From Escherichia coli (GTDB lineage: Bacteria; Pseudomonadota; Gammaproteobacteria; Enterobacterales; Enterobacteriaceae), in assembly GCF_965641715.1 (NCBI RefSeq), contig NZ_OZ282458.1: DNA of 7,176 bases. The stretch is one strand, 5' to 3'. The position numbers were made by a program, and so were the translations under genes. The notes beneath the pieces are model-generated. The model was not told where the DNA came from, did no database searches, and was given only the letters and a program-made list of their open reading frames with translations. Below are positions 2,040 through 7,176 of this stretch, piece by piece. Position 1 is the stretch's first letter. Each line of letters starts with the position of its first letter.

Positions 2040-2280
2040 CCCGCTCCGGTCCCCGTCTTCTTCGCTTCCGAAAGCATGAAAAAAATCCGTTTCAGCAGTC
2101 TCTGGCTGGCAATTCCTGCGTGATTCACATGGCTGCATAGCTATGCATGTGGTTAAAATTTACCGGGTGCGATCGCGGCAGTTTTTCGGGTGGTTTGTTG
2201 CCATTTTTACCTGTCTGCTGCCGTGATCGCACCGAACGCGTTTCTGCGGTGCGGGCAACGGATGTTATGGTAAATACAAT
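2040..2280. promoter_or_regulatory. cer: cer-like plasmid multimer-resolution site (accessory sequences plus XerC/XerD core)
   Basis: Segment cgcggcagtttttcgggtggtttgttgccatttttacctgtctgctgccgtgatcgc...gaacgcgttt...gcggtgcg...ttatggtaaat closely matches recalled ColE1 cer. Perfect palindrome tgcatagctatgca at 2134-2147 lies about 110 bp upstream of the core, where ArgR binds in cer. Confidence 0.75.
2248..2275. promoter_or_regulatory. XerC/XerD recombination core: XerC arm GGTGCGGGCAA, 6-bp central region CGGATG, XerD arm TTATGGTAAAT
   Basis: XerD arm is identical to the ColE1 cer/dif-type consensus TTATGGTAAAT. XerC arm differs from cer (GGTGCGTACAA) at two positions. Central region is 6 bp rather than the 8 bp of ColE1 cer. 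Confidence 0.7.
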
Positions 2281-2332
2281 ATGCAGCCAGTCTTAGAGAC
2301 GAAAAGTCCGCCCAGAAGACTGACTTTTCAGA

Positions 2333-2539
2333 TCAACCTTCAGCATCTAACTTGTCTATCGCTTTTTTATTGCGCCGATAGGTAGCCATTAGTTCACCAT
2401 CGCCTGATTGTAAGTCACGACCTGCTTGCTCAGCATAGGTATCGTTTACAGTCTTAGCGCCTTTTTTATAGGCCTTTTTAACATCATCAAATCCGGCTTG
2501 GATGACTTCTTTCGGCTTTTCTTGAGGTAATTTAGCCAT
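2333..2539 (-). CDS. Hypothetical 68-aa protein, second gene of a two-gene operon; function unknown
   Basis: ORF MAKLPQEKPKEVIQAGFDDVKKAYKKGAKTVNDTYAEQAGRDLQSGDGELMATYRRNKKAIDKLDAEG. ATG at 2539 preceded by GAGGA with 8-nt spacing. Start overlaps the upstream gene's stop (ATGGCTAA, 8-bp overlap), implying translational coupling. AT-rich like the neighbouring R-M genes. Confidence 0.6.
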   Translation of the reverse strand: MAKLPQEKPKEVIQAGFDDVKKAYKKGAKTVNDTYAEQAGRDLQSGDGELMATYRRNKKAIDKLDAEG

Positions 2540-2915
2540 GCTGTGAATCCTCTATAAGGTTGATTATTTTTCCAACAGATAAGACGGCATCTTCTGTGTC
2601 GCTGATTTTATGATTTATCCAACCGTCCTCTATCTTTAATTTGTTCACTACTCCTAATGTAAAAACAACCTTTTTTTCAGGAAAGAAAATTGCAAAGGTT
2701 CTACTTTTCTCTTTCCAATCAGAGGGCGGCGTCGAACGGAACGCTACATTCCTCGATTTAAGTATCGCTTTGATTTTACTAATTAATTCTTTTTTTTGTT
2801 TATTGCTGAGATTTTTGACGAACCCTTTGCTGAGATTGTCTGTGTAATCATCAAAAGAAATATCAACTGGTTTGTTTTTTTGTTTTTTATCAGATAGATG
2901 AACAATGTTTGACAC
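2532..2915 (-). CDS. Hypothetical 127-aa lysine-rich protein, first gene of the two-gene operon; function unknown
   Basis: ORF ...SNIVHLSDKKQKNKPVDISFDDYTDNLSKGFVKNLSNKQKKELISKIKAILKSRNVAFRSTPPSDWKEKSRTFAIFFPEKKVVFTLGVVNKLKIEDGWINHKISDTEDAVLSVGKIINLIEDSQHG. Initiation codon at 2915 is GTG, preceded by AGGA with 6-nt spacing. No motif I recognise. Confidence 0.6.
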   Translation of the reverse strand: MSNIVHLSDKKQKNKPVDISFDDYTDNLSKGFVKNLSNKQKKELISKIKAILKSRNVAFRSTPPSDWKEKSRTFAIFFPEKKVVFTLGVVNKLKIEDGWINHKISDTEDAVLSVGKIINLIEDSQHG

Positions 2916-3054
2916 TGGATATCCTGCTTTTTGATGAATGAATACTCAGAAGAGTAGCGGAACTGTCTTGTTAGTCACAGAGGTAGAGTATCAATTCTAC
3001 GATAGATGGGTTCGAAGATCCGGCTGAGACCGTTCAGTACGCGGTCGAGATGTT

Positions 3055-3059
3055 ATGTT
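3055..3059. repeat. 5-bp target-site duplication ATGTT, left copy
   Basis: ATGTT immediately outside the GGGG terminus of the left inverted repeat; identical pentamer at 3269-3273. Confidence 0.8.
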
Positions 3060-3097
3060 GGGGTCTGAAGTCCAATGGAACGAAAACGTACGTTAGT
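3060..3097 (+). repeat. Left terminal inverted repeat, Tn3 family
   Basis: GGGGTCTGAAGTCCAATGGAACGAAAACGTACGTTAGT matches the Tn3 right-end IR recalled from pBR322/pUC (GGGGTCTGACGCTCAGTGGAACGAAAACTCACGTTAAG) at about 30 of 38 positions, and is closer to the gamma-delta/Tn1000-type end as I recall it. Confidence 0.8.
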
Positions 3098-3230
3098 GAA
3101 GTAACTGTATGATATATCAAGACATAATAGACATAGAAAAACGCCATCAAAACGGTGTCTTTTTAATCGAAAATTGGCACTTAACGGACGGCATTGTCTA
3201 CTAATCGATTTTTAAGACGATAATTTTCCT

Positions 3231-3268
3231 CTTACCGTACATTTTCGTACGGTTGGCCCTCAAACCCC
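3231..3268 (-). repeat. Right terminal inverted repeat, Tn3 family
   Basis: Reverse complement of 3231-3268 is GGGGTTTGAGGGCCAACCGTACGAAAATGTACGGTAAG, matching the left IR at 28 of 38 positions including the GGGG terminus and the ACGAAAA core. Confidence 0.8.
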
Positions 3269-3273
3269 ATGTT
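3269..3273. repeat. 5-bp target-site duplication ATGTT, right copy
   Basis: ATGTT immediately outside the right IR terminus; identical to 3055-3059. Confidence 0.8.
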
Positions 3274-3519
3274 CAATGTAATGACCGTCGAAATTGCCTT
3301 TACGGGCATGAAGCAACCAGGAGCAATCATTGGCAAAGGTAACTAGAGTTCAATGCATGGTAATCATTTTTGAGCTTGTGATGCATAGAGTTGGTTGCTG
3401 TTCCATTGCGTCTCAAACTCCGTCAAGATGCTCGCCGTAAAAGCGAGCATGTCTAGTATGCCTGTTCCGCTACTGATTTTTGATGGGCGAATTCAGGGCT
3501 GGCTAGCCACCAAGAAAAA

Positions 3520-4581
3520 TTACTTTATTTCATCAAACAGGTGAGATGCAGTATAATAAACGCTTTGATCAAAGCGTCTCTCTGGGCTTAATTTATTTTG
3601 CCCGCCATTTAAAATTATTTCTTTTAATACTGATGGTGGAAGGATGGGTTTTGTTCTTCTTGGGTGATCCATATAAGCTTTTGTTATTTTTCCGTTTAGC
3701 GAGAACTCTTTATCACTTTGATATCCAAAGTTCATCTCAGTATAAATTCTATTGATGTTTGTCTTGTTTTTGCTCGCAATTTCATACACCATTCTGGCGA
3801 GTCTGGCTGATGATCTCATTAGTCTGCTGGCAGATGAATTGTTATATGAGGATCTATCAATAAAGGTTCGACACAAAGCAAAATCACTCCAGATGAATAT
3901 GTCAAAGGCATTTTGATCTAATATTGGGCTCTTGCCTTTTGTTTTCCATAATGGTTGCATTAAAAAAGGTTTCTGGTAATCAAGAAAATTTTCTTGGAAA
4001 GTGTTTAGGCAATTTAATATATTTTCTTTCTTTGAAAGAACTTCAGTTTCATTCCCCCAGTGCTGTATGCTTTCGCATGTGGATTCAAATATTTTTCTTA
4101 TTTCATGGAATTTATCGCTGCAAGAGTGCATTATGCCAAGGGCACAATAAGAAGTGCTTGCAGGTCTTATTACAATCTCTGAACTCCATTCGCTCTCGTT
4201 TTCTTTATATGTCGTGCTATCTGGGAGTACGGTTAATTTTATTTCTAGTGCTTTTAAAAAACTATTGTTTCCTTTTATAACTAGATCTATTCCTTTTATG
4301 TCATCATAAGCATACTGTTGGTATGGTTCATATTTTTTCTCAAATTGAAATTCAAGATCACTATTTTTTAATGTTGTGTTAAAAACGAAGTCAAAAGATA
4401 CTTCTTTGGCATGCACTTTTAAATCCTTATCTAAATAAAGATAAATCGGATTCATTTTGTTGTCTCTCATATAACATGCTAGAGAGGTGGGAAAAGAACT
4501 GTTAAATTGGTTCTTTCCCCACAGATCGCTCTCTTTCCTGTTGGTGTTTTTTAAACCATAAAGAGATTCTATTTTGCTCAC
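3520..4581 (-). CDS. Putative Type II restriction endonuclease, PD-(D/E)xK-like
   Basis: 353-aa ORF divergent from the C5-methyltransferase gene. GTG start at 4581 preceded by AGGAG with 6-nt spacing. Translation contains D99 (GIDLVIK) then 13 residues to E113-I-K115 (ALEIKL), the spacing expected for a PD-(D/E)xK catalytic core. AT-rich. No match recalled to a named enzyme. Confidence is about 0.85 that it is a real gene, about 0.55 for the function. Confidence 0.6.
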   Translation of the reverse strand: MSKIESLYGLKNTNRKESDLWGKNQFNSSFPTSLACYMRDNKMNPIYLYLDKDLKVHAKEVSFDFVFNTTLKNSDLEFQFEKKYEPYQQYAYDDIKGIDLVIKGNNSFLKALEIKLTVLPDSTTYKENESEWSSEIVIRPASTSYCALGIMHSCSDKFHEIRKIFESTCESIQHWGNETEVLSKKENILNCLNTFQENFLDYQKPFLMQPLWKTKGKSPILDQNAFDIFIWSDFALCRTFIDRSSYNNSSASRLMRSSARLARMVYEIASKNKTNINRIYTEMNFGYQSDKEFSLNGKITKAYMDHPRRTKPILPPSVLKEIILNGGQNKLSPERRFDQSVYYTASHLFDEIK

Positions 4582-4668
4582 TTTTTGCTCCTGACGTCAA
4601 TTTATTGACGTCTATGGTGTGTTTCTATATCATGATGTGGAGTGATATGATAATGAGTTTTTTATGTT
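4582..4668. promoter_or_regulatory. Divergent R/M promoter-operator region with tandem TTGACGTCAA palindromes
   Basis: cTGACGTCAAtttaTTGACGTCta at 4591-4614 gives two copies of a palindromic decamer 4 bp apart. The second copy supplies a -35 (TTGACG, 4605-4610) for the plus-strand M promoter; 17-bp spacer; -10 TATCAT at 4628-4633. The R-gene SD lies directly beside the first copy. Confidence 0.5.
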
Positions 4669-5826
4669 ATGAGAATAATTGATCTTTTTAGTGGGTGTGG
4701 GGGGTTATCCCTAGGCTTTTTGAAGGGGGGGTTTGATGTTGTAGGTGCTTATGATTTCTGGGATCCTGCTATTGAATGTTACAGAGATAATTTTAGCCAT
4801 CCGATAAAAAAACTAGATTTGAGCAATGTTGATGATGTGGTGAGGGAGCTTAAAGATATAGACTTCGATATGATTATTGGAGGGCCTCCTTGCCAAGACT
4901 TCAGTCATGCAGGTTTAAGAATTGAAGGTGCTAGAGCTAACTTAACTCGCTCATTTTCAGAAATTATAAAAAGAATAAAGCCAAAGTGGTTTGTGATGGA
5001 AAATGTAGATCGGGCATTAAGAAGTGGTGCCTATTTAGAAGCTCGAGGAATCTTTAAAGAATCAGGGTATGGGTTAACAGAAATTGTTTTGGATGCCAGT
5101 AAGTGTGGTGTTCCGCAAAAAAGAAAAAGATTATTTGTAATTGGAAAGCTTGACGTGAGGGATGGTTTTATCCTTAACGAAGTGATGTGCGGGATATCGA
5201 AAGATAGTATGACAGTTAGAAATTATCTTGGTGATTCATTGGGGATTGAGTATTATTACAGACATCCGAGAAATTATAACAGAAGGGCTATTTTCTCTAT
5301 TGATGAACCTGCGCCAACAGTAAGAGGGGTTAATAGACCGATACCTGATGGATATTTAGGGCATGCAGGCGATCCTGTCAGTATTTCTGAGAATGTAAGG
5401 CCATTAACAACCTTTGAAAGAGCAAGATTGCAAACATTTCCTGAAGACTTTAAATTTAAAGGTGCAAAAACAAATTTGGAGCAAATGATAGGTAATGCTG
5501 TTCCGGTTGAGTTAGCAAAATATGTTGCGGTGACAATCATGGAGTATGAAAAAAAACAAGTAAAAGGTATTTATGATAAAGAAGGCTTTAGGGCGTGGTT
5601 GCTGAATGAAAAGAAACTAACAAAAAGAACCTCTAGCGATATTATATCTAGATGTTGCAGAGGTGTTTCATTTTTTGATTCAGAGGGGGTGGATTTTTAT
5701 AACTGTGAAATAGATGAAATTATTATGAAACTGGAAAGGCTTGAATCGTTTGTCAGGCTTGGGGTTAGCCTGAAGTCTCAGTTAAGAAGGGCTTTTAAAT
5801 TATATTACGAATATTGTCGAAGGTAA
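4669..5826 (+). CDS. DNA (cytosine-5)-methyltransferase with a C-terminal extension of about 95 aa
   Basis: All canonical C5-MTase motifs in order: motif I FSGCGG (aa 7-12), motif IV GGPPCQDFS (catalytic Cys75), motif VI ENV (aa 111-113), motif VIII QKRKR (aa 150-154), short target-recognition region, motif IX RPLTTFERARLQTFPEDF, motif X GNAVPVELAKYVA. About 95 further residues follow motif X. Confidence 0.92.
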   Translation: MRIIDLFSGCGGLSLGFLKGGFDVVGAYDFWDPAIECYRDNFSHPIKKLDLSNVDDVVRELKDIDFDMIIGGPPCQDFSHAGLRIEGARANLTRSFSEIIKRIKPKWFVMENVDRALRSGAYLEARGIFKESGYGLTEIVLDASKCGVPQKRKRLFVIGKLDVRDGFILNEVMCGISKDSMTVRNYLGDSLGIEYYYRHPRNYNRRAIFSIDEPAPTVRGVNRPIPDGYLGHAGDPVSISENVRPLTTFERARLQTFPEDFKFKGAKTNLEQMIGNAVPVELAKYVAVTIMEYEKKQVKGIYDKEGFRAWLLNEKKLTKRTSSDIISRCCRGVSFFDSEGVDFYNCEIDEIIMKLERLESFVRLGVSLKSQLRRAFKLYYEYCRR

Positions 5827-5886
5827 TAAATACGAATTTATGTCTCTCAGGGGAGGGGGAGGGGATAAAAAGATCAAAGGATCCTC

Positions 5887-5915
5887 TTGTGATCCTTTTT
5901 TTCTGCGCGTAATCT
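5887..5915 (+). promoter_or_regulatory. RNAII (primer) promoter: -35 TTGTGA (5887-5892), 17-bp spacer, -10 TAATCT (5910-5915)
   Basis: Collinear with the pMB1/ColE1 RNAII promoter (cttcTTGAGAtcc...cgTAATCTgctgcttGcaaac). Predicted start at G5923. Confidence 0.7.
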
Positions 5916-5922
5916 GCTGCCT

Positions 5923-6470
5923 GTAAACAAAAAAACCACCGCTACCAACGGTGGTTTGTTTGCCGGAATCTAGAGCTACCAACTCTTTCTTCCGAAGGTA
6001 ACTGGCTTGGTGGAGCACAGATACCAAATACTGTCCTTCTAGTGTAGCCGCAGTTAGGCCACCACTTCAAGAACTCTTAATATCTCAATCCACCTTGTCC
6101 AGTTACCAGTGGCTGCTGCCAGTGGCGCTTTGTCGTGTCTTACCGGGTTGGACTCAAGACGATAGTTACCGGATAAGGCGCAGCGGTCGGGCTGAACGGG
6201 GGGTTCGTGCACACAGCCCAGCTTGGAGCGAACGACCTACACCGAACTGAGATACCAACAGCGTGAGCTATGAGAAAGCGCCACGCTTCCCGAAGGGAGA
6301 AAGGCGGACAGGTATCCGGTAAGCGGCAGGGTCGGAACAGGAGAGCGCACGAGGGAGCTTCCAGGGGGAAACGCCTGGTATCTTTAAGTCCTGTCGGGTT
6401 TCGCCACCTCTGACTTGAGCGTCGATTTTTGTGATGCTCGTCAGGGGGGCGGAGCCTATGGAAAAACGCC
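5923..6470 (+). ncRNA. RNAII replication primer precursor of the ColE1-type replicon (3' end approximate)
   Basis: Long near-identity to the pMB1/pUC ori sequence (GTAAACAAAAAAACCACCGCTACC...GGGGAAACGCCTGGTATCTTTA...GGAGCCTATGGAAAAACGCCAGC) with clustered substitutions in the 5' stem-loops. Confidence 0.8.
5925..6034 (-). ncRNA. RNAI antisense copy-number control RNA (about 108 nt)
   Basis: Reverse complement begins ACAGTATTTGGTATCTGTGCTCCACCAAGCCAGTTACC... and ends at the GCGGTGGTTTTTTTGTTTAC terminator, as in pMB1 RNAI. Promoter on the minus strand: -35 TTGAAG and -10 TACACT within 6035-6070. Confidence 0.8.
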
Positions 6471-6480
6471 AGCGGCGTGG
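6440..6480 (+). other. Approximate replication origin (RNAII-to-DNA transition) of the ColE1-type replicon
   Basis: Position inferred by collinearity with the pBR322 origin relative to rop and the conserved ggagcctatggaaaaacgccagc block. Exact nucleotide not determinable here. Confidence 0.5.
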
Positions 6481-6639
6481 CCTTCTCTGGGTTCTTGTTT
6501 TTTGCTCACATGTTTCTTTTGGTGTTATCCCCTGATTCTGTGGATAACCGCATTACCGTCTTTGAGTGAGCTGATACCGCTCGCCGCAGCCGAACGACCG
6601 AGCGTAGCGAGTCAGTGAGCGAGGAAGCGGAAGAGCGTC

Positions 6640-6790
6640 GGAAGTTGCATTTTCTCCTTACACATCTGTGCGGCATTTCACACCCGGCATGGCGCACTTT
6701 TCATACAATCTGCACTGATGCCGCATGGTTAAGCCAGTATACACTCCGCTATCGCTACGTGACTGGGTCAGGGCTTCGCCCCGACACCCG
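6640..6790 (-). promoter_or_regulatory. oriT/bom region of the ColE1-type mob system; predicted nic between minus-strand G6734 and C6733
   Basis: Between origin and rop, as in pBR322 bom. Minus strand reads gtgtatACTGG|CTTAAccatgcgg, matching the ColE1 nic context as I recall it (CTGG/CTTA). Both the boundaries and the nick position are from memory. Confidence 0.5.
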
Positions 6791-6882
6791 CAAGGTCAAC
6801 GGCCTGACGCGCCCTGACGGGCTTGTCTGCTCCCGGCATCCGCTCACAGACAAGCTGTGACCGTCTCCGGGAGCTGTATGTG

Positions 6883-7074
6883 TCAGAGGTTTTCACCGTC
6901 ATCCCCGAAGCGTGCGAGGCAGCTGCGGTAAAGCTCATCGGCGTGGTCGTGAAGCGATTCACAGATGTCTGCCTGTTCATCCGCGTCCAGTTCGTTGAGC
7001 TTTTCCAGCAGCGTTAATGTCTGGCTTCTGATAAAGCGCGCCATGTTAAGGGCTGTTTTTTCCTGTTTAGTCAC
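6883..7074 (-). CDS. rop: Rop/Rom (RNA one modulator), 63 aa, GTG start
   Basis: Translation VTKQEKTALNMARFIRSQTLTLLEKLNELDADEQADICESLHDHADELYRSCLARFGDDGENL is identical to pBR322 Rop as I recall it. GTG at 7074 preceded by GGAGG with 5-nt spacing. The track's extension to 7170 is the usual upstream open frame, not the gene. Confidence 0.95.
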   Translation of the reverse strand: MTKQEKTALNMARFIRSQTLTLLEKLNELDADEQADICESLHDHADELYRSCLARFGDDGENL

Positions 7075-7176
7075 TGATGCCTCCGTGTAAGGGGGATTTC
7101 TGTTCATGGGGTAATGATACCGATGAAACGCGAGAGGATGCTCACGATACGGGTTACTGATGATGAACATGCACGG

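What the first reader, a model, noticed from the sequence alone, without database searches (positions are those of the whole stretch)
3520..5826. Divergent Type II R-M cassette occupying the colicin position of a ColE1-type plasmid, with no controller (C) protein
The methyltransferase is an unambiguous C5-cytosine enzyme with a short target-recognition region, suggesting a short recognition site. The divergent 353-aa partner has a candidate PD-(D/E)xK core (D99 ... E113-x-K115). The cassette is far more AT-rich than the backbone, consistent with horizontal acquisition from a low-GC donor. I cannot match either protein to a named enzyme from memory, and there is no separate C-protein ORF, so the regulatory logic must lie in the intergenic palindromes or in the methyltransferase itself.
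Basis: partly seen in the sequence, partly recalled or inferred. Interest (0 to 1): 0.6.

Follow-up and report, generated by a model that had tools for sequence, protein, structure and literature searches.

The report
GRCGYC restriction-modification cassette with fused controller
The cassette is an ordinary, already annotated restriction-modification system of the BsaHI/HgiDI/HindV family on a common E. coli plasmid, but its methyltransferase carries an undescribed DNA-binding-like tail that always travels with a 20-bp operator built from two of the system's own target sites, which points to a new way such systems may control themselves.

Summary
A 353-aa ORF (3520-4581, minus strand) and a 385-aa C5-methyltransferase (4669-5826, plus strand) diverge from an 87-bp spacer in low-GC cargo of a ColE1-type plasmid.

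The proteins can be named. R is a strong RE_HindVP (PF09519) match, and RefSeq calls it a 'HindVP family restriction endonuclease'. The characterised relatives BsaHI and HgiDI cut GRCGYC. D99, E113 and K115 are invariant in 74 homologues. Near-identical cassettes sit on plasmids in 39 of 5,426 complete E. coli genomes.

What appears to be new is the control region:
- The spacer holds two of the window's three GRCGYC sites, arranged as a perfect palindrome, GACGTCAA-N4-TTGACGTC. This overlaps the -35 of the best M promoter.
- The last ~85 residues of M form a separate four-helix module. It resembles tyrosine-recombinase core-binding domains and is usually encoded as a free ~80-aa gene just after M.
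- In 69 assessable related loci, module and palindrome occur together (20) or are both absent (49), whatever the gene arrangement.

I infer a methyltransferase-linked, probably methylation-sensing, autoregulator. DNA binding and any effect of methylation remain untested.

The parts
3520..4581 (-). Restriction endonuclease gene (353 aa, GTG start) of the HindVP/BsaHI/HgiDI family. The predicted specificity is GRCGYC.
   Evidence: PF09519 matches residues 21-344 at E=7.7e-102 and PADLOC REase_II at 3.3e-88. RefSeq lists it as WP_000034299.1 'HindVP family restriction endonuclease'. The motifs WGKNQF, E113-I-K115, QSDKEF and SPERRFD named in PMC2413257 are present. The AF2 model has pLDDT 94.3.
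4586..4590 (-). Shine-Dalgarno AGGAG for R, 4 nt upstream of the GTG and 2 nt from the operator.
   Evidence: Read directly from the sequence.
4593..4612 (.). 20-bp palindromic operator GACGTCAATTTATTGACGTC. It is two GRCGYC target sites (4593-4598 and 4607-4612) 8 nt apart, each extended to TTGACGTC.
   Evidence: Searches show it holds the only two perfect TTGACGYC half-sites in the window. The same element, consensus GRCGTCAA-N4-TTGACGYC, was found in 25 loci, with 22 distinct sequences; at least 20 of these came from the CT-independent genome scan.
4605..4633 (+). Candidate M promoter: -35 TTGACG (4605-4610, inside target site 2), a 17-nt spacer, and -10 TATCAT (4628-4633).
   Evidence: It is the best promoter-like site in 3300-6100, matching 10 of 12 positions. 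The same geometry (half-site TTGACG followed by a -10-like hexamer at 16-18 nt) appears in 21 loci.
4647..4675 (-). Candidate R promoter: -35 TTCTCA 4675-4670 and -10 TATCAT 4652-4647. This is unproven. An alternative is the extended -10 TGaTATAGA at 4632-4624.
   Evidence: The consensus scan matches 9 of 12 positions. The block 4640-4662 is the best-conserved intergenic stretch between the window and the Morganella plasmid apart from the operator.
4669..5553 (+). Catalytic part of the C5-cytosine methyltransferase (M residues 1-~295). There is no N-terminal extension.
   Evidence: PF00145 covers 1-290. The PADLOC MTase_II model of 309 positions covers 1-301. Motif I begins at residue 7.
5575..5820 (+). 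CT module (M residues 303-384), a four-helix domain with a core-binding-like fold. It is fused here and free-standing in most relatives. I treat it as a candidate operator-binding controller.
2254..5867 (.). Low-GC cargo segment in the accessory slot of the ColE1-type backbone.
   Evidence: Backbone homology to the EcoRI plasmid NZ_OW967970.1 covers 1-2253 and 5868-7176 at 99-99.8% identity.

Best explanation
Shown by sequence comparison:
- The cassette is a Type IIP restriction-modification system of the BsaHI/HgiDI/HindV family, carried as cargo on a widespread mobilizable ColE1-type E. coli plasmid.
- R is an intact family member with every conserved motif, including the ExK motif that the inactive HindVP lacks.
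- M is a C5-methyltransferase. By homology it methylates the inner cytosine of GRCGYC.

Inferred:
- M is a fusion of the enzyme with a ~85-aa four-helix module (CT) of the core-binding-domain fold.
- CT binds, probably two copies on one site, the 20-bp palindrome GACGTCAA-N4-TTGACGTC that overlaps the -35 of the M promoter and lies in the leader of R, next to its ribosome-binding site.
- Both half-sites are also substrates of M, so the operator records whether M is active.

Proposed sequence of events:
1. On entry into a new cell the unoccupied, unmethylated promoter fires and M-CT accumulates.
2. M methylates the operator and CT occupies it.
3. The M promoter is shut down. This frees or adjusts the overlapping, oppositely directed R promoter, so R is expressed only after protection is in place.

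The design would combine the CfrBI principle (target site in the promoter) with the SsoII/Ecl18kI principle (a repressor domain fused to M). It uses a different fold, at the other end of the protein.
For: Family identity comes, with GRCGYC biochemistry for BsaHI, HgiDI and M.HindV in PMC2413257 and PMC2615612.

Evidence for the operator:
- Two of the window's three GRCGYC sites lie in the 87-bp spacer as a perfect inverted repeat.
- The same 20-bp element occurs in 25 loci with 22 different sequences. Positions 1, 3-6, 13-18 and 20 are invariant. Positions 2 and 19 vary only as R and Y, which is the degeneracy of the target site.
- It always lies just upstream of M, in divergent, convergent and tandem arrangements.
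- It overlaps the core M promoter in two different ways: as the -35 in 21 loci, or across the spacer and -10 below a separate TTGACA in 4 loci. That pattern fits a protein-binding site rather than a promoter box.

Evidence linking CT to the operator:
- In 69 assessable loci from a scan that did not use CT, 20 have both and 49 have neither (Fisher p=9e-18). Within the R clade at 47% identity or more the counts are 18 and 8 (p=6e-7).
- The R tree shows joint absence in at least five scattered lineages.
- L008 keeps a decayed operator (GACATC...GACATC) and has lost CT.

Evidence on what CT is:
- It is a separable unit. It is free-standing and overlaps the M stop codon in L085 and L086 and is separate in about 16 loci against 7 fused.
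- In L088 a CT homologue sits upstream of R, where a C protein would, behind a promoter whose -35 is TTGACGCC.
Against: - No binding, methylation or expression experiment exists. CT-operator contact is inferred only from co-occurrence and fold.
- The co-occurrence statistics are not corrected for phylogeny, and CT plus operator largely mark one R clade.
- Distant CT homologues break the rule. L094 has CT but no site pair. L088 and the different system in L095 have only a single half-site.
- The R promoter could not be located with confidence, so the effect on R is the weakest step.
- The direction of any methylation effect on CT binding is unknown.
Confidence: 0.62

Rival explanations
1. A pure CfrBI-type switch. 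Methylation of the two target sites in the -35 region changes RNA polymerase binding directly. CT plays no part in regulation and instead helps M bind or dimerise on DNA, or has an unrelated role.
For: A target site sits in the -35 TTGACG. The outer operator positions follow GRCGYC degeneracy. CfrBI, AhdI and LlaDII are precedents (PMC12707154).
Against: This does not explain the invariant TCAA/TTGA extension on both half-sites or the fixed 8-nt spacing. It does not explain the four loci where the element is not the -35. It also leaves the strict joint presence and joint loss with CT unexplained.
Confidence: 0.17
2. An SsoII-like repressor that does not sense methylation. CT binds the palindrome regardless of methylation. 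The resemblance of the half-sites to GRCGYC reflects CT's own specificity or shared ancestry.
For: The fused DNA-binding module and operator between the genes parallel Ecl18kI and SsoII. CT homologues also occur with single TTGACGC-type boxes.
Against: Positions 2 and 19 vary only within R and Y, and positions 1 and 20 are invariant, in 25 loci. That is hard to explain unless the sites must remain substrates of M.
Confidence: 0.12
3. The cassette is a decayed or partly inactive system: an orphan methyltransferase with a dead nuclease, as in H. influenzae HindVP.
For: HindVP itself is inactive. The pEC34B copy of R carries a frameshift near codon 25-31.
Against: The window's R is full length and retains ExK and every motif invariant in 74 homologues. 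The identical protein is on many plasmids.
Confidence: 0.06
4. The palindrome acts at the RNA or DNA-structure level, as a hairpin in the R leader or a cruciform that modulates R translation or transcription. No protein partner is needed.
For: It would form an 8-bp hairpin of -11.2 kcal/mol ending at R's Shine-Dalgarno sequence. A cruciform has been suggested for CfrBI.
Against: In convergent and tandem loci the element is upstream of M and not in an R leader. A hairpin needs only complementary arms, yet the arm sequence itself is invariant across loci.
Confidence: 0.03

Closest known systems
BsaHI / HgiDI / HgiGI / HindV restriction-modification systems (GRCGYC; Pfam RE_HindVP PF09519)
   Same: R and M are clear homologues. 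R has WGKNQF, ExK, DKxF and SPERRFD, and M is a small C5 enzyme.
   Different: In BsaHI the two genes lie six bases apart, and the M gene is 969 nt, about 322 aa. The PADLOC model for this methyltransferase family is 309 positions long and ends at residue 301 of the window's M. The window's M has an extra ~85-aa CT module, the genes are divergent, and a paired-site operator lies between them. HindVP lacks ExK and is inactive, whereas this R keeps ExK.
CfrBI (also AhdI and LlaDII): control by methylation of a target site in the promoter
   Same: The genes are divergent, a target site of the system lies inside the M promoter, and inverted repeats are present.
   Different: Here there are two sites in a fixed 20-bp palindrome that extends beyond the target sequence, and the element is tied to a dedicated protein module.
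SsoII / Ecl18kI / EcoRII / MspI regulatory methyltransferases
   Same: A C5 methyltransferase is fused to a putative sequence-specific DNA-binding domain, with an operator at the M promoter between divergent genes.
   Different: In those enzymes the domain is an N-terminal helix-turn-helix and the operator is distinct from the target site. Here the domain is C-terminal, has a four-helix core-binding-like fold, is often a separate gene, and the operator is made of target sites.
C (controller) proteins of Type II systems (PvuII, BamHI, AhdI, Esp1396I, Kpn2I)
   Same: A small (~80 aa) protein is encoded within the system and associated with a palindromic operator at a system promoter. In L088 it sits upstream of R like a C gene.
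   Different: There is no Xre-type HTH and no C-box. It is usually encoded after M and translationally coupled to it, and the operator is at the M promoter.
Core-binding (SAM-like) domains of tyrosine recombinases, and the CB-like regulator FliZ
   Different: Sequence-family membership is lacking (Pfam E of 0.02 or worse, in 2 of 47 members), and no recombinase catalytic domain is present.

Membership tests
RE_HindVP (BsaHI/HgiDI/HindV) Type IIP endonucleases | Profile match over the full length | tested here: met
   PF09519 at E=7.7e-102 covers residues 21-344 of 353. Identity to homologues across phyla is 37-81%.
RE_HindVP (BsaHI/HgiDI/HindV) Type IIP endonucleases | Family motifs WGKNQF, ExK, (Q/K)(T/N)DKAF(A/S) and SPERRFD (PMC2413257) | tested here: met
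   The window has WGKNQF at 21-26, E113-I-K115, QSDKEFS at 288-294 and SPERRFD at 332-338. Most of these residues are invariant in the family alignments.
RE_HindVP (BsaHI/HgiDI/HindV) Type IIP endonucleases | Cleavage at GR^CGYC | not testable with these tools
   This rests on homology. Indirect support is that the conserved operator half-sites follow GRCGYC with R/Y variation.
PD-(D/E)xK nuclease superfamily | Conserved acidic residue plus (D/E)xK on adjacent strands | tested here: met
   D99, E113 and K115 are invariant in 74 sequences. In the model D99 starts strand 98-104 and E113 lies at the end of strand 107-114, with K115 just after it.
PD-(D/E)xK nuclease superfamily | Fold similarity to solved members | tested here: inconclusive
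C5-cytosine DNA methyltransferases | Profile match and catalytic motifs I, IV (PCQ), VI, VIII and X | tested here: met
   PF00145 at E=2e-61 and TIGR00675 at 170 bits against a cutoff of 100.65. The motifs are visible in the translation.
C-protein-controlled R-M systems | A separate small HTH (Xre-type) ORF | tested here: not met
   The cassette contains no such ORF. CT and its relatives match no Pfam, NCBIfam or PADLOC family. The neighbouring 127-aa and 68-aa ORFs match no family either. No C-box search was run.
SsoII/Ecl18kI-type regulatory methyltransferases | N-terminal HTH extension before motif I | tested here: not met
   Motif I begins at residue 7 and PF00145 starts at residue 1. The extra domain is C-terminal.
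CfrBI-type promoter-methylation control | The system's own target site inside the M promoter of divergent genes | tested here: met
   GACGTC at 4607-4612 overlaps the -35 TTGACG at 4605-4610.
CfrBI-type promoter-methylation control | Methylation of that site changes promoter use | not testable with these tools
   This needs reporter or in vitro transcription assays.
Tyrosine-recombinase core-binding (SAM-like) domain | Four-helix CB fold | tested here: met
Tyrosine-recombinase core-binding (SAM-like) domain | Sequence-profile membership (PF02899 or PF13102) | tested here: not met
   Only 2 of 47 members reach E of about 0.02, and the window's sequence has no match.

The most novel reading that the evidence does not exclude
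CT proteins are a previously unrecognised class of restriction-modification controller. They are small core-binding-fold proteins, free-standing or fused to the C terminus of the methyltransferase. They bind an operator made of the system's own target sites and so read directly whether the cell's DNA is protected. This would be a fifth regulatory mode beside C proteins, HTH-methyltransferase fusions, promoter methylation and antisense RNA. It is spread across many phyla and possibly extends to other systems with GACGC-type sites.
Probability: 0.4. Interest if true: 0.75.

Novelty: new variant of a known kind. Interest (0 to 1): 0.55.

Why it matters
The cassette itself is routine. It belongs to a known enzyme family, is already annotated, and is present on plasmids in about 0.7% of complete E. 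coli genomes.

Its control region is the valuable part. How a mobile restriction system delays its nuclease until the new host is methylated is a standing question, and a 2025 review lists only four solutions.

This system offers a compact, testable candidate for a fifth. A DNA-binding module is tied to the methyltransferase, and its operator is itself a methylation substrate. The plasmid is a small E. coli replicon, so standard reporter, gel-shift and methylome experiments could settle the question quickly.

The module also gives a function hypothesis to a family of at least 200 'hypothetical' small proteins, and a new genomic marker for finding regulated R-M systems.

Tried and rejected
- **Classical C protein.** No HTH ORF was found.
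- **N-terminal regulatory domain on M.** Absent.
- **CT as an annotated family.** It has no Pfam, NCBIfam, PADLOC or PDB-sequence hit.
- **The short Morganella M (319 aa) as evidence that the tail is dispensable.** Rejected. The tail continues in another frame after an A7 run and across the record origin.
- **R-proximal TTGACG as the R promoter.** Rejected. Its -10 and start site would fall inside the R coding sequence.
- **Target-site avoidance in the window.** Not significant: 3 sites against 4.2 expected.
- **Literature.** Searches for a CB-like or SAM-like controller in R-M systems found nothing. This covers open-access text only.
- **L095 as an HgaI-like system.** The identification rests on memory of gene sizes, and the 483-aa protein matched no NCBIfam family. 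I left it as a lead.
- **Exact R promoter.** Sequence alone did not resolve it.
Full report
**Observation**

The window is a complete or nearly complete ColE1-type mobilizable plasmid. It carries mobC, mbeA/B/D, rop and RNAI, the last at 5927-6032. A 353-aa ORF lies on the minus strand at 3520-4581, and a 385-aa ORF lies on the plus strand at 4669-5826. They diverge across 87 bp.

GC content falls to 0.29-0.39 over the cassette, against 0.52-0.61 in the backbone. Comparison with a plasmid of the same backbone that carries EcoRI R-M instead shows backbone homology at 1-2253 and 5868-7176. The cargo slot is therefore 2254-5867. Another plasmid with this backbone is annotated with a colicin-related gene, although I did not check its position. 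'Colicin position' is a fair description of the accessory slot.

**Identity of the enzymes**

R matches Pfam RE_HindVP (PF09519) at E=7.7e-102 over residues 21-344 and a PADLOC Type II REase model at 3e-88. RefSeq already calls it a 'HindVP family restriction endonuclease', next to a 'DNA cytosine methyltransferase'. The cassette is at least 99% identical on plasmids in 39 of 5,426 complete E. coli genomes. None of those copies is chromosomal. It also occurs in Salmonella, and at 77% identity on Morganella plasmids.

Neely and Roberts (PMC2413257) characterised this family, which includes BsaHI, HgiDI, HgiGI and the putative HindVP. It recognises GRCGYC, and M.BsaHI methylates the inner cytosine. 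M.HindV protects DNA against BsaHI, while HindVP itself is inactive (PMC2615612). The paper's diagnostic motifs are all present in the window's R: WGKNQF, the proposed catalytic ExK, DKxF and SPERRFD. The ExK motif that inactive HindVP lacks is here as E113-I-K115.

M is a standard C5 enzyme over residues 1-~295, and motif I begins at residue 7.

**The spacer**

The window has only three GRCGYC sites. Two lie in the 87-bp spacer, at 4593-4598 and 4607-4612. They form a perfect inverted repeat, GACGTCAAT/ATTGACGTC.

Site 2 overlaps the -35 of the best promoter-like site in the region, which points at M: TTGACG 4605-4610, then 17 nt, then TATCAT 4628-4633. Site 1 lies 2 nt from R's AGGAG ribosome-binding site. 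The Morganella plasmid, which has diverged in the rest of the spacer, keeps both sites at the same spacing.

**The tail of M**

Residues ~300-385 lie outside every methyltransferase profile. A phmmer search of this tail against 1.84 billion representative proteins gave 131 hits, most of them free-standing proteins of 75-105 aa. In two metagenomic loci of the same R-M family, the small gene overlaps the stop codon of a 319-320-aa M gene. A profile search found at least 214 clusters with no Pfam domain. Sources label them 'hypothetical protein' or mislabel them as methyltransferase.

No sequence family claims CT. The invariant residues are D324, R328 and R331 in M numbering, and they lie on the long second helix.

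**Comparative test**

I fetched 80 genomic loci encoding R homologues. The scan did not use CT or the operator as a criterion. Gene order is R>M in 47 loci, divergent in 19, convergent in 4 and M>R in 4. Two patterns emerged.

- **The paired sites.** Sixteen of the 19 divergent loci have exactly two GRCGYC sites in the spacer, always 8 nt apart.
- **Co-occurrence with CT.** I searched all loci with an HMM of CT and with the pattern GRCGYC-N8-GRCGYC. The two features coincide completely. Twenty assessable loci have both and 49 have neither (Fisher p=9e-18). Within the part of the family at 47% R identity or more, the counts are 18 and 8 (p=6e-7).

The element always lies just upstream of M, whether R is divergent, convergent or upstream in tandem. 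Across 25 loci (22 distinct sequences) the consensus is G-R-C-G-T-C-A-A-N4-T-T-G-A-C-G-Y-C. Positions 2 and 19 vary only within purine and pyrimidine, which is the degeneracy of the target site. The flanking AA/TT, which are not part of the target site, are almost invariant.

The element relates to the M promoter in two ways. In 21 loci, including the window, the M-proximal TTGACG serves as the -35, with a -10-like hexamer 16-18 nt downstream. In four loci a separate TTGACA lies upstream and the centre of the element (TATATT or AATAAT) falls at the -10. A sequence conserved regardless of which promoter box it overlaps behaves like a protein-binding operator.

An NJ tree of R shows one clade with tight R>M tandems and neither feature. 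A second clade has variable gene order, and there CT and operator are jointly missing in at least five scattered lineages. In L008 the operator has decayed to GACATC...GACATC. Both changes are CpG to CpA, as expected from deamination of 5-methylcytosine. Its M ends at a terminator with no CT.

**Limits**

- The statistics are not corrected for phylogeny.
- More distant CT homologues do not obey the rule. L094 (vsr-R-M-CT) has no site pair.
- L088 has CT upstream of R, in the classical C-gene position, behind a promoter whose -35 is TTGACGCC, with a single site.
- In Bacillus weihaiensis a CT homologue ends an operon of two C5 methyltransferases and an unassigned 483-aa protein. The -35 there is TTGACGC.
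- The R promoter in the window is not resolved. Candidates are TTCTCA-N17-TATCAT at 4675-4647, within the best-conserved spacer block, or an extended -10 at 4632-4624. Either one would send R transcripts through the operator, which as RNA forms a -11.2 kcal/mol hairpin abutting the ribosome-binding site.

**Mechanism**

The following points are shown:
- the family identity of R and M;
- the operator and its conservation;
- the separable CT module and its fold;
- the co-occurrence of CT and operator.

The following points are inferred:
- CT binds the operator;
- binding represses the M promoter;
- methylation of the half-sites modulates binding or polymerase access;
- R expression follows through promoter competition or relief of a roadblock.

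The 2025 EcoSal review lists four modes of Type II regulation: promoter methylation (CfrBI, AhdI, LlaDII), N-terminal HTH-methyltransferase fusions (Ecl18kI, SsoII, EcoRII), antisense RNA, and C proteins. This system resembles the first two at once. It is a member of neither, because the extra domain is C-terminal, is not an HTH, is often a separate gene, and its operator is built from target sites. Searches of the open literature found no description of it. REBASE could not be consulted.

**Verdict**

As a restriction-modification cassette this is already known and already annotated. As a regulatory design it appears to be an undescribed variant that is easy to test experimentally. I set interest at 0.55.

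Noticed in passing
window 3060-3268: A 209-bp miniature element has Tn3-family terminal inverted repeats (GGGGTCTGAAGTCCAATGGAACGAAAACGTACG... and ...CGTACGGTTGGCCCTCAAACCCC). It is flanked by a 5-bp direct duplication, ATGTT, at 3055-3059 and 3269-3273. It is absent from the 6715-bp and pEC34B versions of the plasmid. The resemblance to the Tn3 repeats is from memory.
   Followed up: partly
window 2333-2915 (minus strand): Two overlapping ORFs of 127 aa and 68 aa lie in the same low-GC cargo and are conserved on all related E. coli plasmids. NCBIfam, PADLOC and PHROGs found no match for either, and Pfam (run on the 127-aa ORF only) found none. The third GRCGYC site of the plasmid (2728-2733) lies inside the 127-aa ORF.
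   Followed up: partly
window 2916-3519: About 600 bp between the unknown operon and R contains no ORF of 50 aa or more on either strand, apart from the inserted miniature element. It has imperfect 25-nt inverted repeats at 2953-2977 and 3450-3474. Its function is unknown.
   Followed up: no
L003 (pEC34B, NC_019078.1) 1135-2195: The R gene of this older plasmid sequence is split by a frameshift near codons 25-31 and is annotated as 316 aa. This is either a naturally inactivated nuclease or a sequencing error.
   Followed up: no
L004 (Morganella morganii plasmid NZ_CP066778.1) 5090-5222 and 1-97: M appears to end at 319 aa after an A7 run, but the CT module continues in another frame and across the record origin. 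This is either a homopolymer sequencing error or a genuine split.
   Followed up: partly
L008 (Chitinophaga silvisoli) spacer 2728-2985 and 1500-1900: The operator has decayed to GACATCAAAATACTGACATC, with both CpG changed to CpA. CT is absent and M ends at a terminator. This is an apparent joint loss of operator and module.
   Followed up: yes
L088 1-620: A distant CT homologue (94 aa) is the first gene of a CT-R-M-vsr operon, the position of a classical C gene. The promoter is TTGACGCC-N15-TATTGT (17 nt between the TTGACG and TATTGT hexamers) and contains a single GRCGYC site.
   Followed up: partly
L095 (Bacillus weihaiensis CP016020.1) 4260-8261: A CT homologue (86 aa) ends an operon of two C5 methyltransferases and a 483-aa protein that matches no NCBIfam family. 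From memory this architecture resembles HgaI, which recognises GACGC. The operon's -35 is TTGACGC, flanked by the ATCACA...TGTGAT repeats.
   Followed up: partly
L094 869-3755: This Chloroflexota locus has vsr-R-M-CT in tandem. Its CT is 26% identical to the window's and no GRCGYC pair is present, making it an exception to the CT-operator rule. A different palindrome, ATACTA-N7-TAGTAT, lies upstream of R.
   Followed up: partly
proteins P0260 (467 aa) and P0303 (4562 aa): These larger proteins contain several CT-like stretches: three in a GC-rich 467-aa protein and five in a 4562-aa protein. The module may therefore be used outside R-M systems.
   Followed up: no
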